From the IMG/VR virus record IMGVR_UViG_2671180673_000006: a DNA stretch of 48,006 nt; one strand, 5' to 3'. The position numbers and the translations under genes were made by a program. Numbering within the stretch: position 1 is the stretch's first letter; every line of letters begins with the position of its first letter. Of the stretch, positions 2,133-33,715 are shown piece after piece. The DNA comes from a virus (taxonomy: Duplodnaviria > Heunggongvirae > Uroviricota > Caudoviricetes). Under the pieces are notes generated by a model. It saw only the letters and a program-made list of their open reading frames with translations. It was not told the DNA's origin and searched no databases.

Positions 2133-2894
2133 TCATTGATTCACCTCCTGCCTGTCGTCCGGCATTCGCTCACTACAGCTTATCCAACCATCCGGAGTTA
2201 CCGGAACTTGTGGAATGGCTGTCTGCTCTCGAACGTCATTAGGCGCTATAGGTTCTGCTGCCAACTGACTGGCATATTTGTTAATGGTAACGATAAGCTC
2301 TTGCTCAGCCTCATCCAGACAATCACCGATACCTCGCCTGTCACCGTCAAAATCATCGAAATCGGCACGAATCCTGGCAACCTTCAGGATTGCGGACAAC
2401 ACCTCACTAGGAATTGCCGGATAGTTGGTTGACGTTTCCGCGATTTCCCGAAAATTATTGGTTGACGAATTCTTGTTTTCCCGAAAGTTTCCGGACTGAA
2501 GCATGGCGGCGCGGCAGGCGTTCCATATTTCGGCAGCAATATCGCGCTCGCTATCGGTTAATTTGTACGTTGAAACATAGCCAGAGAGCATTTCTACGTT
2601 TTCCGGAGTTGCTTCTTCAGGCACTACCGGTGCTGGAGGGGCGGCGTAAATGCCCTCTATCACTAAATGTTTGCGCTCAAAATCATCTGGCTCTCGATGA
2701 TATACGTAACTCCAATCACCAAGGTTATCATTGCGCCTGCAACGGAAACCTATCGGCTCTGCTTCCAGCGATGCCAGAGCAATTCGTGCCAGTTCTTCCG
2801 CTTCTTCTGCTGGCAGTACAACGTTGCTACCAGGTCCGTATGTTTCGCGCCACTGCCTGATTGTCAGCAGTCGCTCTTTGGTAATAGTGGTCAT
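2133..2894 (-). CDS. hypothetical early-region protein (253 aa)
   Basis: ATG at 2894 preceded by AAGGA; acidic protein; contains a tandem 33-bp (11-codon) internal repeat at 2425-2490. Confidence 0.6.
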   Translation of the reverse strand: MTTITKERLLTIRQWRETYGPGSNVVLPAEEAEELARIALASLEAEPIGFRCRRNDNLGDWSYVYHREPDDFERKHLVIEGIYAAPPAPVVPEEATPENVEMLSGYVSTYKLTDSERDIAAEIWNACRAAMLQSGNFRENKNSSTNNFREIAETSTNYPAIPSEVLSAILKVARIRADFDDFDGDRRGIGDCLDEAEQELIVTINKYASQLAAEPIAPNDVREQTAIPQVPVTPDGWISCSERMPDDRQEVNQ

Positions 2895-6042: not shown

Positions 6043-6405
6043 TTAATGACCTGCTGCGCGTAGTTTTCCGTCAGGTTCACCGGCAAGAGTCAGTAATTGT
6101 CCCTGGTCTTCCTGCAGAATAGTCAGGCGACCACCGCGATTGACATACATCGGTGTTTCGGTGGTGTCTTCTTCGGAAATTTTCCCGCGGTTAGTCGGGC
6201 GAACATATGAGAGTTTGTGTTTGATTTTCACACGGTTCTCATCAAACGGTTCGATGTCCAGATTGACCGAGACTTTACCTTTGTTTTTCGTGTTCATCAC
6301 ACCGGAAGCGACTTCACTGAGAACTGCGCCGAGTTTGGTTTCAAATACGCCGCCGTCCAGTTCTACGATAAATACCTGCACATCAGTACTGCGTACGCTA
6401 GCCAT
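6043..6405 (-). CDS. hypothetical protein (YfdP-like, 120 aa)
   Basis: Track ORF 6043..6591 has an implausible Cys/Arg-rich N-terminal extension; internal ATG at 6405 preceded by GAGGAG gives a 120-aa acidic protein. Confidence 0.5.
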   Translation of the reverse strand: MASVRSTDVQVFIVELDGGVFETKLGAVLSEVASGVMNTKNKGKVSVNLDIEPFDENRVKIKHKLSYVRPTNRGKISEEDTTETPMYVNRGGRLTILQEDQGQLLTLAGEPDGKLRAAGH

Positions 6406-6551
6406 TTTGCTGCTCCTCATCATACCGACCCTGCAAGGTCGGTTGGTTTCTCCACAAAACAGAGAAGAACACCTGCGGTGACAGCCGCCCGGATGGATTG
6501 GGTTATGAGCCCGTCGTCCGGTGATGCTCTTCTCTGTTTTGTAAAAAGAGC

Positions 6552-6590
6552 GGTACCAGCCGGAAGCAAGTGTACAAACTGGTACCGCCA
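6552..6590 (-). terminator. candidate intrinsic terminator in the leftward early leader
   Basis: Perfect 10-bp GC-rich inverted repeat GCGGTACCAG / CTGGTACCGC (6552-6561, 6581-6590) with a 19-nt loop; on the minus-strand transcript it is followed by UCUUUUUA. Confidence 0.4.
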
Positions 6591-7075
6591 AAGCAGTGGC
6601 TGTTGTGGTGCCGGTGCTGATCTCCGGCTTGCGGTTATTTCAGACTCTCACGGGCGTTTGATTGCCCCGCCGAACAGCTCTTTTCCGCAATAGCTGCAAT
6701 GTCTTTCGCGCATCAGCCTGCGCATTCACCACAACGCTGAGAGCATTGCCGGTGTCCGAATCGAACGGACCTTTTCCCTGCCCAACCCTCCCATCTGAAT
6801 GGGACTGTCTGGAATTGAACCAGCACTTATGCCTTGCTCGTCAATGCTCTCATCGTTGCGTCCTGGTCTCTTCCCAGGCGTCAAACCGAATCGCCACGCT
6901 GGTTAGGCGTCTTATCAGCATCATCATTGACTTGCACATTCCGGCTACCTGGTTTGTTTGCCCGAGCAAGGAGTGGATTGTCCCCTTTAACGTCCCCAGA
7001 CCGCTAACGACGCATGTGCCATACGCCGTGTTACAACCAAATTTTGTTTAATCTTGCCTGTGGCATGTTTCTTTT

Positions 7076-7092
7076 AGATACATTATGTATCT
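7076..7092. promoter_or_regulatory. 17-bp perfect palindrome, candidate left operator
   Basis: AGATACAT-T-ATGTATCT read directly from the sequence; lies between the cI 3' end and the leftward early region. Confidence 0.35.
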
Positions 7093-7113
7093 CAAGGGTA
7101 CATTGTCAAGTAT

Positions 7114-7135
7114 AAAAAAACCTGCCGAAGCAGGT
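7114..7135 (-). terminator. intrinsic terminator downstream of cI
   Basis: Minus strand reads ACCTGC-ttcg-GCAGGT followed by TTTTTTT, 13 nt after the cI stop codon. Confidence 0.5.
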
Positions 7136-7147
7136 TATAAATATTGA

Positions 7148-7822
7148 TTAGGCCTTTATTTTGTATCTTCTTGGTTTTCCTGAGAAAATTACTGTACCAA
7201 TTATAGAGCAATTACCGTTGATCTTAATGTAAGGTTCAGGCCAGTTTGGGTTTAATGCTTTGAGGTAACGCTGTGTTCCATCTTCTATCAACCGCTTAAA
7301 GGTGGTTTCGCCCGTATCGTGCATCAATGCAATAACGTCGTCACCGTGGCAGGCAGGGACTTCAGGATCTACAAAAATCATGTCTCCCGGGCGGTACTCA
7401 TCAATCATTGAATCACCAATCACCCGCAAGATATAAGTCATTTCGCCACAGGGTACAGGGCAGGGATAAGTTTCTGCTGTGCTCAAATCAACCTCAGAAT
7501 AGCCAACTTCTTTCCATGCTCCGGCCTGTACCCATGATATGACAGGGACTAACGTTATTTGTTTGTTAGTAATTGAAACATCAGGTTTTTTTGTGATGTT
7601 TGTTGTCTGGTGTTCTTGATCAAGCCATCCGACAGGCAGGTCGAAACATTTTTCGATGTGCCGTGCCATGCTGTCACCGATATTTTTAGTAGCACCATCT
7701 CCCATAAACCTGCTGGTCTGGGTTGGCTCGCGATCAATCATGGTGGCAAAGGAAGAATTCCCGCCAACACCATCTCTCAGTTTTCTGGCGTTAGACCGCC
7801 GGATGTCATGGACTGTTTTCAT
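7148..7822 (-). CDS. cI: CI-type prophage repressor (HTH N-terminus, LexA-like S24 peptidase C-terminus)
   Basis: 224 aa; C-terminal ...GDSMIDEYRPGDMIFVDP...DDVIALMHDTGETTFKRL... matches the S24 autocleavage domain of lambda CI/LexA; divergent to a Cro-like gene; no RBS before the ATG. Confidence 0.85.
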   Translation of the reverse strand: MKTVHDIRRSNARKLRDGVGGNSSFATMIDREPTQTSRFMGDGATKNIGDSMARHIEKCFDLPVGWLDQEHQTTNITKKPDVSITNKQITLVPVISWVQAGAWKEVGYSEVDLSTAETYPCPVPCGEMTYILRVIGDSMIDEYRPGDMIFVDPEVPACHGDDVIALMHDTGETTFKRLIEDGTQRYLKALNPNWPEPYIKINGNCSIIGTVIFSGKPRRYKIKA

Positions 7823-7857: not shown

Positions 7858-7912
7858 GTATCTTGAAGGTTCATCTCAATCATGTAATATGTATATCGGA
7901 GGTACATATTGT

Positions 7913-8113
7913 ATGAAAGCGTATTGGGACTCTTTAACCAAAGAACAGCAGGGCGAGTTGGCCGGAAAAGTTGGCTCAACACCAGGCTACTTACGGCTGG
8001 TTTTCAATGGTTATAAAAAAGCCAGTTTTGTGCTGGCTAAAAAACTTGAGCAATGCACGTCAGGTGCAATTACGAAATCTGACTTAAGACCGGATATCTA
8101 TCCGAAAGATTAA
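7913..8113 (+). CDS. cro: Cro-like HTH regulator
   Basis: 66 aa from ATG 7913 preceded by GGAGG; small basic protein divergent from cI; the track ORF 7610..8113 overlaps cI antisense and its upstream part is rejected. Confidence 0.6.
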   Translation: MKAYWDSLTKEQQGELAGKVGSTPGYLRLVFNGYKKASFVLAKKLEQCTSGAITKSDLRPDIYPKD

Positions 8114-8144: not shown

Positions 8145-8714
8145 ATGAGGCTAACCGTGGGTAAGCATCACTGGAAAGTAGAAAAACAGCCTGAGTGGTA
8201 CGTGAAAGCTGTCAGAAAAACTATCGCGGCGTTGCCGGGGGGTTACGCTGAAGCTGCTGAGTGGCTGGATGTAACAGAGAACGCTTTATTCAACCGCCTT
8301 CGTGCAGATGGCGATCAGATTTTCCCGCTGGGATGGGCAATGATTTTACAGCGCGCGGCTGGCACTCACTACATTGCGGATGCTGTCGCACAGTCTGCTG
8401 GTGGGGTGTTTGTATCGCTTCCTGAAATTGAGGAAGTAGAGAATGCCGATATAAACCAGCGCCTGCTGGAAGTCATCGAACAGATCGGGAGTTACTCAAA
8501 GCAGATTCGTTCGGCAATCGAAGATGGGGTAGTGGAGCCACACGAGCAGACAGCAATTAATGATGAGTTGTATCTGTCAATTTCGAAGCTCCAGGAGCAT
8601 GCAGCACTGGTCTACAAAATCTTTTGCGCTCCAGAAAAGAGTGACGCCCGCGAGTGTGCAGCTCCGGGCGTCGTGGCGTCGATTGCTTCTGGTTGTGGAG
8701 AAACTAACGCATGA
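8145..8714 (+). CDS. CII-like regulatory protein (larger CP76-type by recollection)
   Basis: 189 aa, first gene after cro; ATG at 8145; stop overlaps the next start (ATGA); family assignment tentative. Confidence 0.4.
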   Translation: MRLTVGKHHWKVEKQPEWYVKAVRKTIAALPGGYAEAAEWLDVTENALFNRLRADGDQIFPLGWAMILQRAAGTHYIADAVAQSAGGVFVSLPEIEEVENADINQRLLEVIEQIGSYSKQIRSAIEDGVVEPHEQTAINDELYLSISKLQEHAALVYKIFCAPEKSDARECAAPGVVASIASGCGETNA

Positions 8715-9871
8715 ATAGTTTAACGGCAAATAACCGTTTGTCGCAACAGCTGGTGGTCAGCGTCGCTGAACACCTGTTGTTACGGCATGAATGCAGATTA
8801 CCAAATCACCTGGCTGTAAGTAACCACAGAGAACTTTACCTGACTGTGGGGGGCGAGTTGTGCAGGAACTTAACCGCTGGTTTCGTGACGGAAGAGGGCT
8901 TTATGTCCATGTTATTCGTTGGGAGCCAGAAACACAGCGCGTTATCTATCTTCGCAAAGACTACCCGCATGAGTGCTTTAGTCCTTTGTGGAAATTCAGG
9001 CGTGATTTTGTTGAGTGTGAAGGACCACCAGCATATTGATTCTGCAATTCCGGGACGTTACACTGCTCAGGCACCTTATAAAGCGGGTGCCGGGATTGGC
9101 GTCCTGAAATTGTCAACGGCGATGTATGACGCGCCAGCGTCTTTTTTATCGTCCGCATTTGCTCACATCCAGATTATGGTGGGCTGGGCGGGGGCACCGA
9201 AAGGTGCGCCGGTCTCCGTTGACGCCGGTTACGCCAACCCCGTCCAGTTCACCACCAGTGAAATTGGCGTTTCCGGTGGTGGAAGTTTTTCACTGTCAAC
9301 GGAGGCTGCCATCATGGCTACGATCCCAGCCCTCACTCAACCTGAAATCACCATTGACAACGGCCAGGCCGTTACCACTTCTTTGGCTGTTGCCAACTTC
9401 TTCTCCAAGCGTCACGACGATGTGCTGAAAAAGATCCGCACTCTGGATTGTTCCCCAGAGTTTTGTGCCCGCAATTTTGCGGAGACATCGATTTCGGTAA
9501 ATCAACCGAACGGTGGTACACGCAAGCTCCCTTGCTATCAAATCACACGAGACGGTTTTGCGTTTCTTGCTATGGGTTTCACGGGTAAACGTGCTGCCCG
9601 GTTCAAAGAGGCATACATAAATGCCTTTAACCAGATGGAAAAACTGCTTTCAAAGCCATCCACGCTGAGCGATGCCGCAGATAACGCCAGCGTGCTTTAC
9701 TCCCACCTGTCGGTAATCCACAAGGTCTGGCTGCAGCAGCTTTATCCCATGTTGGCAAAAGCCGAATCCCCGCTGGCTGTAAGTCTGTATGACCGCATCA
9801 ACGACGCGGCGCTACTGGCCAGTCTCATAAATTTGTCGCTGAACCCTTCAGAGGTAAGGGGGCGCAAATGA
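8711..9871 (+). CDS. Rha-family phage regulatory protein with a long N-terminal extension
   Basis: Residues about 215-305 (...SLAVANFFSKRHDDVLKKIRTLDC...YQITRDGFAFLAMGFTGKRAARFKEAYINAFNQME...) match the Rha domain; a separate in-frame ATG at 9314 with GGAGG 8 nt upstream could start a 185-aa Rha-only protein. Confidence 0.55.
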   Translation: MNSLTANNRLSQQLVVSVAEHLLLRHECRLPNHLAVSNHRELYLTVGGELCRNLTAGFVTEEGFMSMLFVGSQKHSALSIFAKTTRMSALVLCGNSGVILLSVKDHQHIDSAIPGRYTAQAPYKAGAGIGVLKLSTAMYDAPASFLSSAFAHIQIMVGWAGAPKGAPVSVDAGYANPVQFTTSEIGVSGGGSFSLSTEAAIMATIPALTQPEITIDNGQAVTTSLAVANFFSKRHDDVLKKIRTLDCSPEFCARNFAETSISVNQPNGGTRKLPCYQITRDGFAFLAMGFTGKRAARFKEAYINAFNQMEKLLSKPSTLSDAADNASVLYSHLSVIHKVWLQQLYPMLAKAESPLAVSLYDRINDAALLASLINLSLNPSEVRGRK

Positions 9872-15119: not shown

Positions 15120-15136
15120 TTTTGTGGAGAAAGTTG

Positions 15137-15517
15137 ATGCGTGATATTCAGATGGTTCTTGAACGCTGGGGGGCATGGGCGGCAAGTGGTAACACCGGGG
15201 TGGACTATTCTCCGATCGCTGCCGGATTCAAAGGACTTTTACCATCTGCCACTAAACCACGTCCGGCCTGCTGCGATGATGACGGACTTATCATTGAAAA
15301 CTGTCTTGCTCGTCTGAAGCAGAAAAAACCTGAGGAGTATTCGCTTCTCATTGCTCATTATTTGTTGCGAATATCAAAAAGACAGATAGCCAGGACGAGA
15401 AAGAAAAGCGAAAAAGCAATACGAATTGAGATGCAGATAGCCGAAGGGTTTATTGACGGATGTTTGTCTGTGCTGGGGGTAAGACTGGAGATGGACGACT
15501 GGCTGCTAAAAAAGTAA
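15137..15517 (+). CDS. Q: late-gene antiterminator Q (short Q family)
   Basis: 126 aa from ATG 15137 preceded by GGAGAAAG; ...MRDIQMVLERWGAWAAS... matches the short antiterminator-Q signature; followed by a terminator and the late region. Confidence 0.6.
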   Translation: MRDIQMVLERWGAWAASGNTGVDYSPIAAGFKGLLPSATKPRPACCDDDGLIIENCLARLKQKKPEEYSLLIAHYLLRISKRQIARTRKKSEKAIRIEMQIAEGFIDGCLSVLGVRLEMDDWLLKK

Positions 15518-15987: not shown

Positions 15988-16063
15988 GGCCCTTTAGATC
16001 AGTGGTGAGAGCGAGCGATTCATAATCGCTAGGTCGCTGGTTCAAATCCAGCAAGGGCCACCA
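15988..16063 (+). tRNA. ileZ: tRNA with CAU anticodon (Ile2/lysidine-type by resemblance to E. coli ileX; Met not excluded)
   Basis: 76-nt cloverleaf drawn by hand: acceptor GGCCCTT/AAGGGCC, anticodon loop TTCATAA (CAT at 16021-16023), T-arm GGTTCAAATCC, 3' CCA encoded; D-stem has an A11:G24 mismatch. Confidence 0.75.
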
Positions 16064-16070
16064 TCACATA

Positions 16071-16147
16071 CCGCCATTAGCTCATCAGGATAGAGCGCCA
16101 GCCTTCGAAGCTGGTTGCGCGGGGTTCGAGTCCTCGATGGCGGTCCA
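16071..16147 (+). tRNA. argN: tRNA-Arg (anticodon UCG)
   Basis: 77 nt: acceptor CCGCCAT/ATGGCGG, D-stem GCTC/GAGC, anticodon stem CCAGC/GCTGG with loop CTTCGAA (TCG at 16105-16107), T-loop TTCGAGT, CCA encoded; the C1:G72 start is unusual. Confidence 0.65.
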
Positions 16148-16160
16148 TTATCTGTACCCT

Positions 16161-16237
16161 GCGTTATTAGCTCAGCCGGACAGAGCAATTGCCTTCTAAG
16201 CAATCGGTCACTGGTTCGAATCCAGTACAACGCGCCA
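16161..16237 (+). tRNA. argO: tRNA-Arg (anticodon UCU)
   Basis: 77 nt: acceptor GCGTTAT/ACAACGC (one A:C mismatch), D-stem GCTC/GAGC, anticodon stem ATTGC/GCAAT with loop CTTCTAA (TCT at 16195-16197), T-loop TTCGAAT, CCA encoded. Confidence 0.75.
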
Positions 16238-16247
16238 GACTTATTTT

Positions 16248-16278
16248 TCCCGGCTCGCTTTTGCGGGCTTTTTTTTAA
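16248..16278 (+). terminator. candidate terminator after the tRNA cluster
   Basis: GCTCGC-tttt-GCGGGC (one G:U pair) followed by TTTTTTTT. Confidence 0.4.
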
Positions 16279-16729
16279 ATGTCTCACAATTCAGACGGTT
16301 GACAGTTGTCTGTTTTGCGGGGAGTTTGTTAAAAGAAACTGGCATGGTGAATCCCCCTGTGCGGAGGGGCAATCAGCAACTGGTGTTTTGTCACCGACCC
16401 TTATCCTTTCTGTGCGGGTTCAGGTGCTGATACTGAACTCACCGGGAGGCACCCGGCATCATGTGCATGATGATACAGATACGCGGCTTTAGCCCCTCTC
16501 CGGAGGGGCTTTCTTGTGGGCAAAAAAAAGCCCGAGTGGGTTCGGGCAACAGCATGAGATATACATTTTTATAATCGAATGGATTTTAACCAGAATTCAT
16601 AAGGCTGCGCAACTGCGCGGTCTTTTTCGAATTGCGGGCTGTCGTCTCTCTTCTGCCATTGTCCTGTAACTTCCGGACTTCAGCCCGCTCCTTATTTTAC
16701 TCACAATATTATCCCGGCCGGGAGGATTC

Positions 16730-24112: not shown

Positions 24113-26012
24113 TATGATGAGTGCTGTCACAACAGCATTACAGCCCCTGATAAGGGCATTGCCGGTGACGCCAGTTGAATGGGCTGATCAAAATTATTAT
24201 CTGCCTAAAGAATCTTCATATGGTGAGGGAGAATGGAAAACGCTGCCGTTCCAGATCGCCATCATGAACAGCATGGGGAATGATCAGATCCGGACTGTTA
24301 ATCTGATTAAATCTGCCCGTGTTGGCTATACAAAGATGTTGCTGGGGGTGGTCGGGTATTTTATTGAGCATAAATCCCGAAACAGTCTGCTTTTTCAGCC
24401 CACGGATTCTGCCGCTGAAGATTTTATGAAGTCTCACGTGGAGGCGACGATTCGGGATGTGCCATGTCTGAAAGACCTTTNTCCATGGCTGGGGCGTAAA
24501 CATCGTGACAATACNCTCACGCTGAAACGCTTTTCATCGGGTGTGGGNTTCTGGTGCCTGGGCGGCGCTGCCGCCAAAAACTACCGTGAAAAATCCGTGG
24601 ACGTGGTCTGCTATGACGAACTTTCCTCGTTCGAACCGGATGTCGAAAAAGAGGGTTCGCCAACCCTGCTTGGGGATAAACGTATTGAGGGCTCTGTATG
24701 GCCCAAATCCATTCGCGGCTCGACGCCTAAAATCAAAGGCACCTGCCAGATCGAAAAAGCGGCCAACGAGTCGGCGCATTTCATGCGTTTTTATGTGCCC
24801 TGCCCNCACTGTGGGGAGGNGCAGTATCTGAAATTTGGCGATGANTCCACGCCTTTTGGCCTTAAATGGGAGAAGGACAGCCCCGAAAGCGTTTTCTACC
24901 TCTGTGAACATCATGGCTGCGTGATCCATCAGTCTGAGCTTGACCAGAGCAACGGGCGGTGGATCTGTGAAAACACGGGGATGTGGACCCGNGACGGTCT
25001 GACGTTTTTCAGCGCCGCGGATAATGAAATTCCGCCGCCGCGCTCCATCACNTTCCATATCTGGACNGCGTACAGTCCGTTCACCACCTGGGTACAGATN
25101 GTCTATGACTGGCTGGATGCACTGAAAGATCCCAACGGCCTGAAAACCTTTGTGAACACCACGCTGGGCGAGACCTGGGAAGAGGCCGTGGGCGAAAAAC
25201 TCGATCACCAGGTGCTGATGGATAAGGTTGTGCGTTACACGGCNGCGGTGCCTNCCCGGGTGGTTTATCTGACGGCGGGCATTGACTCGCAGCGAAACCG
25301 TTTTGAGATGTATGTCTGGGGATGGGCNCCGGGAGAGGAAGCCTTTCTGGTGGATAAAATCATCATTATGGGGCGTCCCGATGAGGAAGAGACGCTGTTA
25401 CGTGTGGATGTGGCGATCAACAAAAAATACCGCCATGCAGACGGAACCGAAATGACCATTTCCCGTGTCTGCTGGGACACCGGGGGGATCGATGGCGAAA
25501 TTGTCTATCAGAGGTCAAAAAAACACGGTGTTTTCCGGGTGCTGCCGGTAAAAGGTGCATCTGTTTATGGCAAGCCGGTGATCACCATGCCAAAAACCCG
25601 CAATCAGCGGGGCGTGTATCTGTGCGAAGTGGGGACGGACACCGCAAAAGAAATTCTCTATGCCCGTATGAAAGCCGATCCCACGCCTGCGGATGAAGCC
25701 ACGTCGTATGCCATCCGTTTTCCTGATGATCCGGAGATTTTTTCGCAGACAGAGGCGCAGCAACTGGTNGCGGAAGAGCTTGTGGAGAAGTGGGAAAAAG
25801 GAAAGATGCGTCTGCTGTGGGATAACAAAAAGCGGCGTAACGAAGCGCTGGACTGCCTGGTGTATGCCTACGCGGCATTACGTGTGTCCGTGCAACGCTG
25901 GCAGCTTGATCTGGCTGTACTGGCAAAATCCCGGGAAGAAGAGACGACCCGGCCAACCCTTAAAGAACTGGCAGCGAAGCTGTCCGGAGGAGTGAATGGT
26001 TACAGTCGCTGA
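24084..26012 (+). CDS. A: terminase large subunit (lambda gpA-like)
   Basis: 642 aa from ATG 24084 (MNISEQQL...); ...VEWADQNYYLPKESSYGEGEWKTLPFQ... and ...WCLGGAAAKNYREKSVDVVCYDE... match gpA throughout; several n bases inside. Confidence 0.9.
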   Translation: MNISEQQLNNMMSAVTTALQPLIRALPVTPVEWADQNYYLPKESSYGEGEWKTLPFQIAIMNSMGNDQIRTVNLIKSARVGYTKMLLGVVGYFIEHKSRNSLLFQPTDSAAEDFMKSHVEATIRDVPCLKDLXPWLGRKHRDNXLTLKRFSSGVXFWCLGGAAAKNYREKSVDVVCYDELSSFEPDVEKEGSPTLLGDKRIEGSVWPKSIRGSTPKIKGTCQIEKAANESAHFMRFYVPCXHCGEXQYLKFGDXSTPFGLKWEKDSPESVFYLCEHHGCVIHQSELDQSNGRWICENTGMWTXDGLTFFSAADNEIPPPRSIXFHIWXAYSPFTTWVQXVYDWLDALKDPNGLKTFVNTTLGETWEEAVGEKLDHQVLMDKVVRYTXAVPXRVVYLTAGIDSQRNRFEMYVWGWXPGEEAFLVDKIIIMGRPDEEETLLRVDVAINKKYRHADGTEMTISRVCWDTGGIDGEIVYQRSKKHGVFRVLPVKGASVYGKPVITMPKTRNQRGVYLCEVGTDTAKEILYARMKADPTPADEATSYAIRFPDDPEIFSQTEAQQLXAEELVEKWEKGKMRLLWDNKKRRNEALDCLVYAYAALRVSVQRWQLDLAVLAKSREEETTRPTLKELAAKLSGGVNGYSR

Positions 26013-33283: not shown

Positions 33284-33715
33284 ATGTTCCTGAAAACAGA
33301 ACAATTTGAATATAACGGTGTATCCGTCACGCTTTCTGAGCTGTCTGCGCTGCAGCGTATTGAGCATCTTGCCCTCCTGAAACGGCGGGCAGAAGAGGCT
33401 GAAGCCAGCGGCAACCTGCAGGTGAGTGTGGAAGATCTTGTCAGAACCGGCGCGTTTCTGGTGGCGATGTCCCTGTGGCATAACCATCCACAGAAAACGC
33501 AGTCACCGTCAATGAATGAGGCCGTGATGAAGATAGAGCAGGAAGTGCTCACCACCTGGCCTGCNGATGCCATTGCCCGGGCGGAAGACGTGGTGTTGNG
33601 NCTGTCCGGGATGATCGAAGCTGTTCGTCCGGATACTGATATTACTGAAGTGGCGAAAAATAACACGCTGACTGATGATGATTTTTCTGCGGGAAAGTCT
33701 TCGACGGNGAGCTGA
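33284..33715 (+). CDS. G: tail assembly chaperone gpG
   Basis: 143 aa; ends just after the slippery heptamer GGGAAAG; position and size as lambda G. Confidence 0.8.
   Translation: MFLKTEQFEYNGVSVTLSELSALQRIEHLALLKRRAEEAEASGNLQVSVEDLVRTGAFLVAMSLWHNHPQKTQSPSMNEAVMKIEQEVLTTWPXDAIARAEDVVLXLSGMIEAVRPDTDITEVAKNNTLTDDDFSAGKSSTXS

What the first reader, a model, noticed from the sequence alone, without database searches (positions are those of the whole stretch)
6406..7147. ORF-free structured leader where lambda-type phages encode antiterminator N
The roughly 740 bp between cI and the first leftward early gene contain no minus-strand ORF of 60 codons or more; the best hand-translated candidate is a 25-codon Arg-rich peptide (6852..6929). 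The region instead holds a 17-bp perfect palindrome (7076-7092), a GC-rich 10-bp hairpin (6552-6590) followed on the minus-strand transcript by UCUUUUUA (terminator-like, with a boxA-like CGCUCUUUUUAC), and a 13-bp perfect inverted repeat (6458-6470 / 6530-6542) enclosing 59 nt. With no N-like gene, early-left expression may rely on an RNA-based antitermination element (put-like), a small regulatory RNA, or a host factor. All functional readings are inference.
Basis: partly seen in the sequence, partly recalled or inferred. Interest (0 to 1): 0.6.

Follow-up and report, generated by a model that had tools for sequence, protein, structure and literature searches.

The report
Structured RNA modules in PL leader
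The gene-free stretch after this prophage's early-left promoter is a chain of conserved, folded RNA modules ending in a terminator; one module belongs to a large unannotated family of phage RNAs that resembles the prophage sRNAs STnc100/PasD, and nothing here is a put-type antiterminator or a hidden N gene.

Summary
After cI come its terminator, a strong PL-like promoter whose -10 lies in the 17-bp palindrome (an operator), then about 530 nt of non-coding, strongly folding RNA before an intrinsic terminator (6589-6543), then the 5' UTR of the first gene.

The leader is a mosaic of portable RNA modules:
- M4 (7048-6859)
- Domain I (6858-6732), a long helix
- Domain II (6737-6600)
- a second Domain-I-type hairpin (6542-6454)

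Domain II is a P1/P2/variable/P4 junction with complementary P2 and P4 loops and compensatory changes in the stems. Its invariant cores each occur in more than 120 IMG/VR contigs. The 5' core is in 642 of 5,426 complete E. coli genomes, never annotated. It also occurs in phage P1 and in Klebsiella, Erwinia and Edwardsiella phages. No Rfam model matches it.

It shares its architecture (UGGUG-AAU-hairpin ... CACCA, then a terminator) with STnc100 and PasD. In N-encoding lambdoid phages it sits between nutL and N.

A put covariance model finds nothing, no N homologue exists, and the "boxA" is the terminator's 3' arm.

Best reading: a repressor-controlled leader that makes terminated sRNA-like transcripts, with downstream genes expressed by read-through. 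The function is inferred.

The parts
7119..7136 (-). Intrinsic terminator of the cI transcript (AACCUGCUUCGGCAGGUU followed by UUUUUAUA)
   Evidence: cI at 7148-7822 matches PHROG transcriptional repressor / CI-like families.
7082..7109 (-). PL-like promoter: -35 TTGACA (7109-7104), 16-nt spacer, -10 CATAAT (7087-7082). Start inferred at about 7075.
   Evidence: 11 of 12 matches. The start position is an inference from the spacing.
7076..7092 (.). Operator (OL-type) palindrome AGATACATTATGTATCT, overlapping the -10 hexamer and the inferred start
   Evidence: A related site, GGTACATATTGTATG, lies at 7901-7915 next to cro. That search is not above chance on its own (5 matches against 3.7 expected), so the operator reading rests on position. 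Homology with phages of other immunity stops at about 7048-7052.
6859..7048 (-). Module M4: a conserved structured RNA with blocks CCAGGUAGCCGGAAUGUGCAAG and GGCGAUUCGGUUUGAC and a hairpin CCUGG-GAAGAGA-CCAGG
   Evidence: Homologues lie in the P1 trnI-ban spacer and in Uetakeviruses, at 78-88% identity. Seven pairs show compensatory change. The 22-mer is in more than 120 IMG/VR contigs, and 64 of 79 distinct contexts are followed directly by a Domain I helix.
6732..6858 (-). Domain I: long helix (6858-6842 with 6748-6732, CAACGAUGAGAGCAUUG / CAAUGCUCUCAGCGUUG) closing a variable apex. In this window the apex carries two T-arm-like hairpins.
   Evidence: repeat I2; -55.3 kcal/mol, z = -4.5. 47 of 96 Domain II contexts have this helix immediately upstream. 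62 distinct versions show G-C to A-U exchanges at two positions.
6600..6737 (-). Domain II. P1: 6735-6728 with 6609-6602. J: (G)AAU. P2: 6723-6719 with 6712-6708, loop GGCUGA. Variable domain: 6707-6631. P4: 6628-6624 with 6614-6610, loop AGAUCAGCA. The P2 loop GCUGA (6717-6713) is complementary to the P4 loop UCAGC (6620-6616).
   Evidence: Model R2 scores 81.9 bits, E = 2e-19. Family and covariation. The single-sequence fold reproduces P1, P2 and P4. This window's copy lacks one C of the consensus P1 3' strand.
6543..6589 (-). Intrinsic terminator: 13-bp stem (6589-6577 with 6561-6549) followed by CUUUUU
   Evidence: The same GGCGGU...ACCGCC-UUUUU element follows Domain II in 47 of 153 distinct contexts. 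Any terminator-like signal follows within 170 nt in 59%, against about 20% in control windows.
6454..6542 (-). Second Domain-I-type hairpin (ACAAAACAGAGAAGAGCAUCACCGG ... CCGCAGGUGUUCUUCUCUGUUUUGU) in the 5' UTR of the first gene
   Evidence: repeat I1; z = -6.0. Its stem sequence was picked up as a Domain-I-type helix.
6403..6443 (-). Small hairpin (6443-6424), Shine-Dalgarno GAGGAG (6418-6413) and the ATG (6405-6403) of the first leftward gene
   Evidence: Read directly from the sequence; fold.
6043..6405 (-). First early-left gene (120 aa; SfV orf32 homologue, phrog_204, function unknown; not N-like)

Best explanation
Shown by the analysis. The 740 bp consist of the cI terminator, an operator-controlled PL-type promoter, and then a non-coding leader built from portable, independently conserved structured-RNA modules. 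The order is M4, Domain I, Domain II, an intrinsic terminator 533 nt from the inferred start, and then a second Domain-I-type hairpin and the ribosome-binding site of the first gene. Domain II is a member of a large, previously unannotated family of Enterobacterales-phage RNAs. Its fold is a closing helix P1, the junction AAU, a 5-bp hairpin P2, a variable domain of about 35-170 nt, and a 5-bp hairpin P4 that runs straight into the 3' strand of P1. The P2 and P4 loops are complementary.

Inferred. When the repressor is lifted, PL first makes a terminated non-coding transcript of about 0.5 kb. The 17-23-bp perfect helices of the Domain I type are likely RNase III sites. Cutting there would release a species of about 195 nt (Domain II plus terminator) with the same layout as the Hfq-bound prophage sRNAs STnc100 and PasD. 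That species would probably act in trans. The early-left genes would be expressed only by polymerases that read through the leader terminator. No N/nut or put system is involved.
For: Anatomy.

Mosaic borders at about 6600, 6746, 6843 and 7050 coincide with module borders.

Domain II family:
- The exact 24-mer and the exact 22-mer cores each occur in more than 120 IMG/VR contigs with unrelated flanks.
- 85 of 96 distinct contexts carry both halves.
- 93.5% of cells are paired and 8 pairs show double changes; 0 of 500 shuffles reach this.
- P2 shows compensatory variants, and P1 is fully compensated in L014.
- The 5' core is in 642 of 5,426 complete E. coli genomes and is unannotated.

Terminators are enriched threefold directly after Domain II.

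In L054 and L062 a cI-like gene, its terminator, operators and TTGACA-17-TACATT are followed 13 nt later by Domain II, and then by the same terminator and first gene as in this window.

Same architecture as STnc100 (Rfam alignment) and PasD1. Model R2 hits both at exactly the P1 borders, though weakly: 13.8 and 14.8 bits.

STnc100 and PasD are expressed prophage sRNAs; PasD's stability was shown to depend on Hfq (PMC8550237; bioRxiv 10.64898/2026.05.13.724894).

No N homologue is present.
Against: - No expression data exist for this locus or for any Domain II member, so the processing, the sRNA product and any trans action are inference.
- Similarity to STnc100 and PasD is architectural. The Rfam STnc100 model does not hit the leader even at E <= 10, and the R2 hits on STnc100 and PasD are not significant at genome scale.
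- The U-tract has only five U, shorter than in typical Hfq-dependent sRNAs (own knowledge). The single-stranded stretch between P1 and the terminator is only about 13 nt, against about 45 nt in PasD.
- Domain II also occurs where no terminator follows. 27 of 153 contexts run straight into a gene start, including N genes. It also occurs inside tRNA arrays. This argues for a function that lies in the fold itself rather than in a base-pairing seed.
- The covariation sample was collected by exact match to one half of the RNA, and the loop-loop pairing is supported by conservation only, with no double changes.
Confidence: 0.5

Rival explanations
1. A cis-acting processing and translation-control scaffold. 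The long helices and Domain II would work like the RNase III-processed N-leader of lambda. They would set the stability, 5' end and translation of the downstream message, with no trans-acting product.
For: - In N-encoding lambdoid contigs Domain II lies exactly between nutL (boxA plus boxB) and the N start codon. It sits inside the flanks (CUUUGGGGUGUG ... CACACCACCAAAGCUAACUGACAGGAG-AUG) that in lambda enclose the N-leader stem.
- The RNase III role of that stem in lambda is established knowledge (Kameyama 1991; Wilson 1997), cited from memory.
- Domain-I-type helices of 17-23 bp are RNase III-sized.
- One such hairpin lies directly before the ribosome-binding site of the first gene.
Against: - In this window Domain II is separated from the first gene by a terminator.
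- Many family members are followed by terminators or tRNAs rather than genes.
- A pure spacer or processing role does not explain an invariant 25-nt core and invariant loops across more than 100 contexts.
Confidence: 0.2
2. A large modular 'ornate' phage RNA whose function lies in its three-dimensional fold or in self-assembly, comparable to GOLLD and ROOL. It might relate to tRNA arrays, translation or counter-defence. The PL leader would be just one of several places where it is expressed.
For: - The modules recur together (M4 then Domain I in 64 of 79 contexts; Domain I then Domain II in 47 of 96) but also separately.
- They lie on the tRNA strand, beside or inside tRNA arrays, in temperate and virulent phages including P1, IME207, K751 and phiEt88.
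- Complementary loops could form intra- or intermolecular kissing contacts.
- GOLLD and ROOL are phage and prophage RNAs of unknown function, often near tRNA islands (PMC12286853).
Against: - No Rfam GOLLD or ROOL match.
- The modules are much smaller and are separable.
- Only about 13% of sampled loci have tRNAs nearby.
- There is no evidence of oligomerisation.
Confidence: 0.13
3. An RNA-based processive antiterminator. It would be a functional analogue of HK022 put, unrelated in sequence. Domain II, or the whole array, would bind the transcribing polymerase and carry it through the leader terminator and later ones, replacing N.
For: - No N is present.
- A strong terminator stands between PL and the first gene.
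- In L054 and L062 Domain II begins about 6 nt after the inferred start. putL likewise lies at the start of the PL transcript (PMC9378689).
- Other copies lie at the heads of long operons: upstream of P1 tciA...ban, and between Q and the lysis genes.
Against: - The put model finds nothing, and the sequence matches are at chance level.
- There is no second Domain II (or put-like) copy in the right operon.
- The same RNA occurs in phages that already have N, Q or put (phiEt88).
- It also occurs in tRNA arrays of virulent phages.
- Terminators placed immediately after the element suggest that the transcript normally ends there.
Confidence: 0.09
4. Non-functional mosaic joints or decayed genes. 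The sequence would be conserved only because it was recently exchanged among phages.
For: - Identity among E. coli prophages is very high, at 96-100%.
- Several phage records annotate short hypothetical ORFs here on either strand, and these match PHROGs of unknown function.
Against: - Compensatory changes occur in P1, P2, P4, the Domain I helix and M4.
- An invariant core sits in more than 100 unrelated flank contexts and in phages of several families and hosts.
- The annotated ORFs differ in strand and frame between records.
Confidence: 0.05
5. A hidden small N-like protein is encoded in the leader.
For: Short minus-strand ORFs exist with Arg-rich stretches, for example 6640-6732 (MVNAQADARKTLQLLRKRAVRRGNQTPVRV) and 6852-6929.
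Against: - No PHROG hit to any antiterminator. Pfam was not run on these leader ORFs: the one attempt failed on a coordinate error, and one search scanned only the proteins downstream of Domain II in other contigs.
- Both ORFs overlap RNA elements whose variation is compensatory or by insertion and deletion rather than codon-like.
- Real N genes in related contigs are 89-120 aa and lie downstream of Domain II, not inside it.
Confidence: 0.03

Closest known systems
STnc100 (Rfam RF02076) and PasD1/PasD2, Hfq-associated sRNAs of lambdoid prophages
   Same: - Same order of elements: P1 with the 5' strand ..UGGUG, a junction AAU(C), a 5-bp GC-rich hairpin with a short (4-6 nt) loop, a variable middle, the P1 3' strand CACCA.., and then an intrinsic terminator. 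STnc100, like Domain II, also has a 5-bp hairpin running straight into the P1 3' strand; PasD1 shows no clear one.
- All are phage-borne.
- About 20 Domain II copies lie between Q and the lysis genes, as STnc100 and PasD do.
- This window carries a genuine STnc100 at 16313-16521.
   Different: - Sequence differs. The Rfam model does not detect Domain II.
- Domain II has a 9-nt P4 loop complementary to the P2 loop.
- Its core is nearly invariant.
- Its host and phage range is far wider: P1, and Klebsiella, Erwinia and Edwardsiella phages, including virulent ones.
- It also sits in PL leaders, N leaders and tRNA arrays.
- It has little single-stranded 'seed' before the terminator.
- Hfq binding is untested.
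The lambda N-leader (RNase III-processed stem between nutL and N)
   Same: - Same genomic slot. In N-encoding relatives Domain II is flanked by the very sequences that flank the lambda N-leader stem, and its P1 continues that stem.
- Both are long structured untranslated RNAs directly after PL.
   Different: - Lambda's insert has a different sequence and is not hit by model R2 (locus L229 gave no hit).
- This window has neither nutL nor N, and a terminator follows the RNA.
HK022 put (putL/putR) antiterminator RNAs
   Same: - A non-coding structured RNA right after PL in an N-less lambdoid phage.
- In some relatives Domain II starts within about 6 nt of the transcript start.
   Different: - No sequence or model similarity.
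- A different fold: a junction with a variable domain, against two stem-loops of about 70 nt.
- A single copy per operon set.
- It co-occurs with put, N and Q in other phages.
GOLLD and ROOL large phage RNAs
   Same: - Phage or prophage non-coding RNAs of unknown function.
- Conserved parts combined with variable parts.
- Frequent neighbourhood of tRNA genes (PMC12286853).
   Different: - No model match.
- Different hosts (Enterobacterales).
- Smaller, separable modules.
- No evidence of assembly.
Lambda N / nut (boxA-boxB) antitermination
   Same: The position downstream of PL, and an apparent CGCUCUUU string.
   Different: - No N gene.
- No boxB.
- The boxA-like string is part of the terminator and is not conserved in relatives.
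- An rrn-like 'UGCUCUUU' seen upstream of Domain II in other phages is the 3' strand of the Domain I helix.

Membership tests
HK022 put RNA | Conserved two-stem RNA of about 70 nt, detectable by sequence or by a covariance model | tested here: not met
   Model R1 (six putL sequences plus putR) gives no hit in the leader; the best hit in the window is E = 1.6, elsewhere. BLAST finds only chance 9-12-mers.
HK022 put RNA | Paired sites: one just after PL and one in the PR operon | tested here: not met
   Domain II occurs once in the window, and no put-like hit lies in the PR operon.
HK022 put RNA | Binds the beta' zinc-binding domain and suppresses termination without protein factors | not testable with these tools
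   Needs in vitro transcription and rpoC mutants (PMC9378689 describes the assay).
Lambda N / nut system | An N protein gene downstream of PL | tested here: not met
   No ORF of 60 codons or more lies wholly in the leader. Neither the early-left genes nor the leader ORFs match any antiterminator family. True N genes were recognised in related contigs by the same kind of search.
Lambda N / nut system | A boxA plus boxB nut site in the leader RNA | tested here: not met
   TGCTCTTTA-type matches are at chance level, with none in the leader. CGCUCUUU at about 6552-6545 is the terminator's 3' arm plus U-tract and is not conserved in relatives.
STnc100 (RF02076) / PasD | Reaches the Rfam gathering score | tested here: not met
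   No hit in 6300-7250 even at E <= 10, and none on other family members.
STnc100 (RF02076) / PasD | Architecture: P1 (..UGGUG / CACCA..), AAU, a 5-bp hairpin, a variable middle (plus, in STnc100, a hairpin abutting the P1 3' strand), then a terminator | tested here: met
   Rfam alignment of the window's own STnc100; PasD1 sequence; Domain II structure. Reciprocal weak R2 hits fall at the P1 borders.
STnc100 (RF02076) / PasD | A stable Hfq-bound sRNA with trans targets | not testable with these tools
   Shown for PasD by Northern blot and RIL-seq (PMC8550237). There are no data for Domain II.
Lambda-type N-leader structure | Lies between nutL and the N start codon | tested here: not met
   Met for family members in L038, L025, L121, L074, L061 and L116. 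Not met for this window's copy, which has no nutL or N.
tRNA / tRNA-like gene | A cloverleaf detectable by ARAGORN; an encoded or positioned CCA end | tested here: not met
   No tRNA in 6300-7250 even with relaxed thresholds. No conserved CCA follows P1. T-arm-like hairpins in the Domain I apex are seen by eye only.
GOLLD / ROOL | A match to the Rfam models | tested here: not met

The most novel reading that the evidence does not exclude
M4, Domain I and Domain II are parts of a previously unrecognised class of modular, fold-driven RNAs of Enterobacterales phages, of which STnc100 and PasD would be reduced relatives. Their function would lie in the conserved junction and its loop-loop contact rather than in base-pairing to mRNAs. 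Candidate functions are binding the transcription or translation machinery, acting as a protein-free antiterminator or processing device at the head of long phage operons and tRNA arrays, or assembling as GOLLD and ROOL do.
Probability: 0.22. Interest if true: 0.85.

Novelty: new variant of a known kind. Interest (0 to 1): 0.62.

Why it matters
A structured RNA with an invariant core is present in about one in eight complete E. coli genomes. It also occurs in phage P1 and in hundreds of viral contigs. It has no Rfam model and no annotation, and I found no paper describing it. In several records it has been overwritten by spurious 'hypothetical protein' calls.

It links the poorly understood prophage sRNAs STnc100 and PasD to a much larger family. 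It also shows that the slot between PL and the first early gene is a hot spot for exchangeable RNA modules. In lambda that slot holds nutL, the RNase III site and N.

For N-less lambdoid phages of the SfV, cdtI, mEp460 and Stx-phage type, it poses a directly testable question: how do polymerases pass a good terminator placed before the first early-left gene?

Tried and rejected
1. boxA/boxB (nut) reading of the invariant 40-mer AGUGCUCUUUCCGUU-GUGGUGAAUGCGCAGGCUGAUGCGC. This was attractive. I dropped it when the 'boxA' proved to be the 3' strand of the Domain I helix and the hairpin proved to be P2 of a larger fold with a conserved 3' partner.

2. Decayed HNH endonuclease gene, suggested by the peptide MRRLMRERHCSYCGKEL at 6648-6725. 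A stop codon lies directly upstream, the downstream sequence differs completely between family members, and there is no family hit.

3. tRNA pseudogenes or an attachment-site remnant. ARAGORN finds nothing.

4. Rfam at gathering and at permissive thresholds, on the window and on 17 related loci. Nothing matched on the leader modules.

5. put. See the membership test.

6. Full-text search for the core sequence returned no paper. The SfV genome paper and the King 2011 put paper are not held.

7. A generic structural descriptor without the AAU constraint is not specific: 23 hits against 1-13 in shuffles. It did not show that M4 shares the Domain II plan.

8. A CCA tail or minihelix mimicry. No CCA is conserved.

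9. Plus-strand ORFs of 129 and 158 aa, annotated in mEp460 and Ayreon. They match only unknown-function PHROGs and run antisense through covarying RNA helices, so I treat them as spurious.
Full report
**Setting**

The window is a lambdoid prophage.
- cI lies at 7148-7822 (minus strand) and matches PHROG transcriptional repressor / CI-like families.
- cro lies at 7913-8113. A CII-like gene lies at 8145-8714. A Q-like gene lies at 15122-15517.
- Downstream of cI on the minus strand come a terminator (7136-7119 plus a U-run) and an 11/12 sigma-70 match: TTGACA 7109-7104, 16 nt, CATAAT 7087-7082.
A close copy of its core lies beside cro at 7901-7915. It is an OL-type operator, not part of the leader RNA.
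- Phages with other immunity regions (mEp460, 1720a-02, Stx2a_1447) share the leader at about 98% identity only up to about 7048. This fits that border.

**Observation check**

Details are in the observation check. The leader RNA from 7075 to 6400 folds far better than shuffles, z = -4.3. So do its parts:
- Domain I, z = -4.5
- the 6400-6545 region (5' UTR with the Domain-I-type hairpin), z = -6.0
- the terminator hairpin, z = -3.1

No minus-strand ORF longer than 52 codons lies wholly inside the region.

**The leader is a mosaic of portable modules**

BLAST against phage genomes breaks the leader at about 6600, 6746, 6843 and 7050. Each piece turns up alone, in unannotated intergenic DNA of unrelated phages:
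- 6865-7042 in P1, between trnI and ban (79% identity), and in Uetakeviruses
- 6601-6748 in IME207, next to tRNA genes (96%)
- 6708-6861 in an Edwardsiella phage, in the gap between rdgC and the repressor
- a stretch of about 40 nt in Klebsiella, Erwinia and jumbo Ackermannviridae phages at 90-100% identity

**Domain II (6737-6600, minus strand)**

Distribution:
These give 100 distinct flank contexts.
- In 85 of 96 contexts a second conserved block, GCCGGAGAUCAGCACCGGCCACCAC, follows after 35-170 unrelated nucleotides.
- A scan with that 3' block recovered 126 instances. 83 carry the exact 5' block. The rest show compensatory variants of hairpin P2, such as GCGUA/UACGU, GCGAA/UUCGC, GCACA/UGUGC and GCGGA/UCCGC.

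The fold, in order:
- closing helix P1 (UGUGGUG / CACCACA, with outer pairs that covary)
- junction AAU
- P2: GCGCA, loop GGCUGA, UGCGC
- the variable domain, then A(A/U)
- P4: GCCGG, loop AGAUCAGCA, CCGGC, running without a spacer into the P1 3' strand
- P2-loop GCUGA is complementary to P4-loop UCAGC

Support for the fold:
- I aligned 80 distinct sequences with the variable domain cut out (A1). 93.5% of cells pair and 8 pairs show double changes. 0 of 500 column shuffles reach any of the five measures, and slid registers fall to 26-51% paired.
- One copy in L014 has a fully compensated P1, UUGGAUG / CAUCCAA.
- The single-sequence fold of this window's copy reproduces P1, P2 and P4.
- A covariance model built from 42 full-length members (R2) scores the window copy at 81.9 bits, E = 2e-19.
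- R2 also finds two copies in P1 upstream of tciA and a diverged one in SfV.

Caveats:
- The sequences were gathered by exact match to one half of the RNA, so variation is under-sampled.
- The loop-loop helix is supported by conservation alone.
- The model E-values are rough.

Spread in E. coli: the 31-nt core is in 642 of 5,426 complete genomes, and window-type DNA (6590-6860) is in 848. None of the listed matches has an annotated feature under it.

**The other modules**

- Domain I (6858-6732) is a 17-bp helix closing a variable apex. The sequence I first read as an rrn-type boxA upstream of Domain II (AGUGCUCUUUCCGUU) is the 3' strand of this helix. Its partner, AACAGGUAAGAGCAUUG, was found in 47 of 96 contexts. 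Across 62 distinct versions there are G-C to A-U exchanges at two positions.
It is a second Domain-I-type hairpin in the 5' UTR of the first gene.
- M4 (7048-6859) has conserved blocks and a covarying hairpin, with 7 compensated pairs among 5 sequences. Its 22-mer is in more than 120 viral contigs, and 64 of 79 distinct contexts run directly into a Domain I helix.
- Ayreon, a close relative, keeps M4, Domain I and the terminator. It replaces Domain II with another RNA that keeps P1 (GUUGUGGU / ACCACAAC), AAU and a 5-bp hairpin.

**Where Domain II lives**

- Of 126 loci, 43 have a cI-type repressor gene about 1.1 kb upstream on the same strand, so the RNA is in the PL leader.
- About 20 lie between a Q-like gene and the holin and endolysin genes.
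- About 13% lie beside or inside tRNA arrays on the tRNA strand. In L018 the RNA sits in a tRNA array and ends about 3 nt before the tRNA-Ser gene.
- In L054 and L062 the order is repressor, terminator, operators, TTGACA-17-TACATT, then Domain II 13 nt after the -10, then the same terminator, hairpin and first gene as in this window.
- In 27 of 153 distinct downstream contexts a ribosome-binding site and ATG follow within 70 nt. Among 20 such loci extracted earlier are Arg-rich proteins that Pfam identifies as N antiterminators (N36, N_peptide). There the order is PL, boxA, boxB, Domain II, N. The flanks are the ones that in lambda enclose its own N-leader stem.
- A terminator-like hairpin plus U-run follows Domain II within 170 nt in 59% of contexts, against about 20% in control windows. 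47 contexts share this window's GGCGGU...ACCGCC-UUUUU terminator.

**Relation to known RNAs**

- Rfam 15 has no match to any leader module, at gathering or at permissive thresholds.
- The window's own STnc100 (16313-16521, in the late region after three tRNAs) has the same plan as Domain II in its Rfam alignment: GCAUGGUG, AAUC, CCCCU[GUGCGG]AGGGG, a variable part, CCGGG[AGGCA]CCCGG, CACCAUGC, then a terminator.
- PasD1 of EPEC reads CGCAUGGUG-AAU-CCUCC..GGAGG ... CGCCAUGCG, then a single-stranded seed and a terminator.
- R2 hits both at exactly these borders, but weakly.
- STnc100 and PasD are expressed prophage sRNAs of unknown function, and a 2026 preprint proposes that they share an ancestor; Hfq-dependent stability was shown for the Pas sRNAs (PMC8550237; bioRxiv 10.64898/2026.05.13.724894; PMC12370729).
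- I therefore file Domain II as a new, much larger branch with the same architecture. Membership in RF02076 itself fails.

- N: absent.
- nut: absent. The boxA-like string is the terminator arm.
- put: a model built from HK022, phiEt88, UPF_BP1, CobraSix, S9-5 and HK639 putL plus HK022 putR finds nothing. phiEt88 has both putL and a Domain II RNA, in different operons.
- Small peptides: not conserved.

**Mechanism**

Shown: promoter, operator, three RNA modules, terminator, hairpin, ribosome-binding site and gene, in that order.

Inferred, at about 0.5 confidence:
- De-repressed PL makes a terminated non-coding RNA of 533 nt.
- RNase III cuts in the long helices would free a Domain II plus terminator species of about 195 nt, built like STnc100 and PasD.
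- The early-left genes depend on read-through of the leader terminator.

Rivals, with evidence and refuting results listed separately:
- a purely cis-acting processing or translation scaffold, as in the lambda N leader (0.2)
- a fold-driven 'ornate' RNA comparable to GOLLD and ROOL (0.13)
- a put-like but unrelated antiterminator (0.09)
- non-functional mosaic DNA (0.05)
- a hidden small protein (0.03)

What is missing is any expression or binding data. The experiments that would decide are listed under next steps.

Noticed in passing
window 9071-9259 (+): isrK (RF01394, 62 bits) and C4 antisense RNA (RF01695, 81 bits) lie back to back inside the first third of the long mechanical ORF 8711-9871. 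The real antirepressor (Rha/Ant-type) gene probably starts after them. This would be a P1 immI-like c4/ant module in the right operon, and a second long non-coding stretch in this prophage.
   Followed up: no
window 15988-16577 and 16730-18691: The late leader after the Q-like gene carries tRNA-Met, tRNA-Arg(tcg), tRNA-Arg(tct), STnc100 and AsxR (minus strand). A 653-aa protein that reads by eye like a NanS-p-type esterase follows (not checked with any tool). No stx-sized ORFs follow the tRNAs.
   Followed up: partly
window 16896-16949 (+): The Domain II model gives its second-best window hit here (16.9 bits, E about 0.01). It is a miniature GUGGUGAA...CACCAC helix enclosing 30 nt, inside the 5' part of the esterase-like ORF. 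It may be chance.
   Followed up: no
L004 (phage P1 NC_005856) 2492-2619 and 2775-2880, minus strand of the locus: Two Domain II RNAs lie upstream of tciA in the sense of the tciABC-trnI-ban operon. They overlap the annotated genes upl and plp on the opposite strand. Those two P1 ORFs of unknown function may be mis-annotations, or the RNAs may be antisense to them.
   Followed up: partly
L013 / L230 (Erwinia phage phiEt88): The same phage carries a putL 94% identical to that of HK022 (33570-33640) and a Domain II RNA between a Q-like gene and tRNA-Phe.
   Followed up: yes
L179 49-162 and 240-360; L018 3462-3600: Tandem Domain II copies are followed by tRNA-Ser, tRNA-Arg and tRNA-Met on the same strand. 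In L018 a Domain II copy lies between tRNA genes and ends about 3 nt before the tRNA-Ser gene, so RNase P processing of the tRNA could define the 3' end of the RNA.
   Followed up: partly
L121 1795-1969: The variable domain of this Domain II copy contains D-arm-like and T-arm-like sequences (AGCUCAAUCGGUAGAGCU ... CUGGUUCGAUUCCAG), but ARAGORN calls no tRNA. The apex of this window's Domain I likewise has two T-arm-like hairpins (about 6822-6808 and 6770-6754).
   Followed up: partly
window 46719-46917 (+) and about 25100: A full-length IS009 RNA match (225 bits). There is also a single N in the sequence near 25100.
   Followed up: no
L001 (Ayreon), L003 (mEp460), L002 (SfV) leader regions: Public records annotate different short 'hypothetical protein' ORFs on both strands across these RNA modules. 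SfV has an extra 297-nt orf33 inserted between PL and a diverged Domain II.
   Followed up: partly
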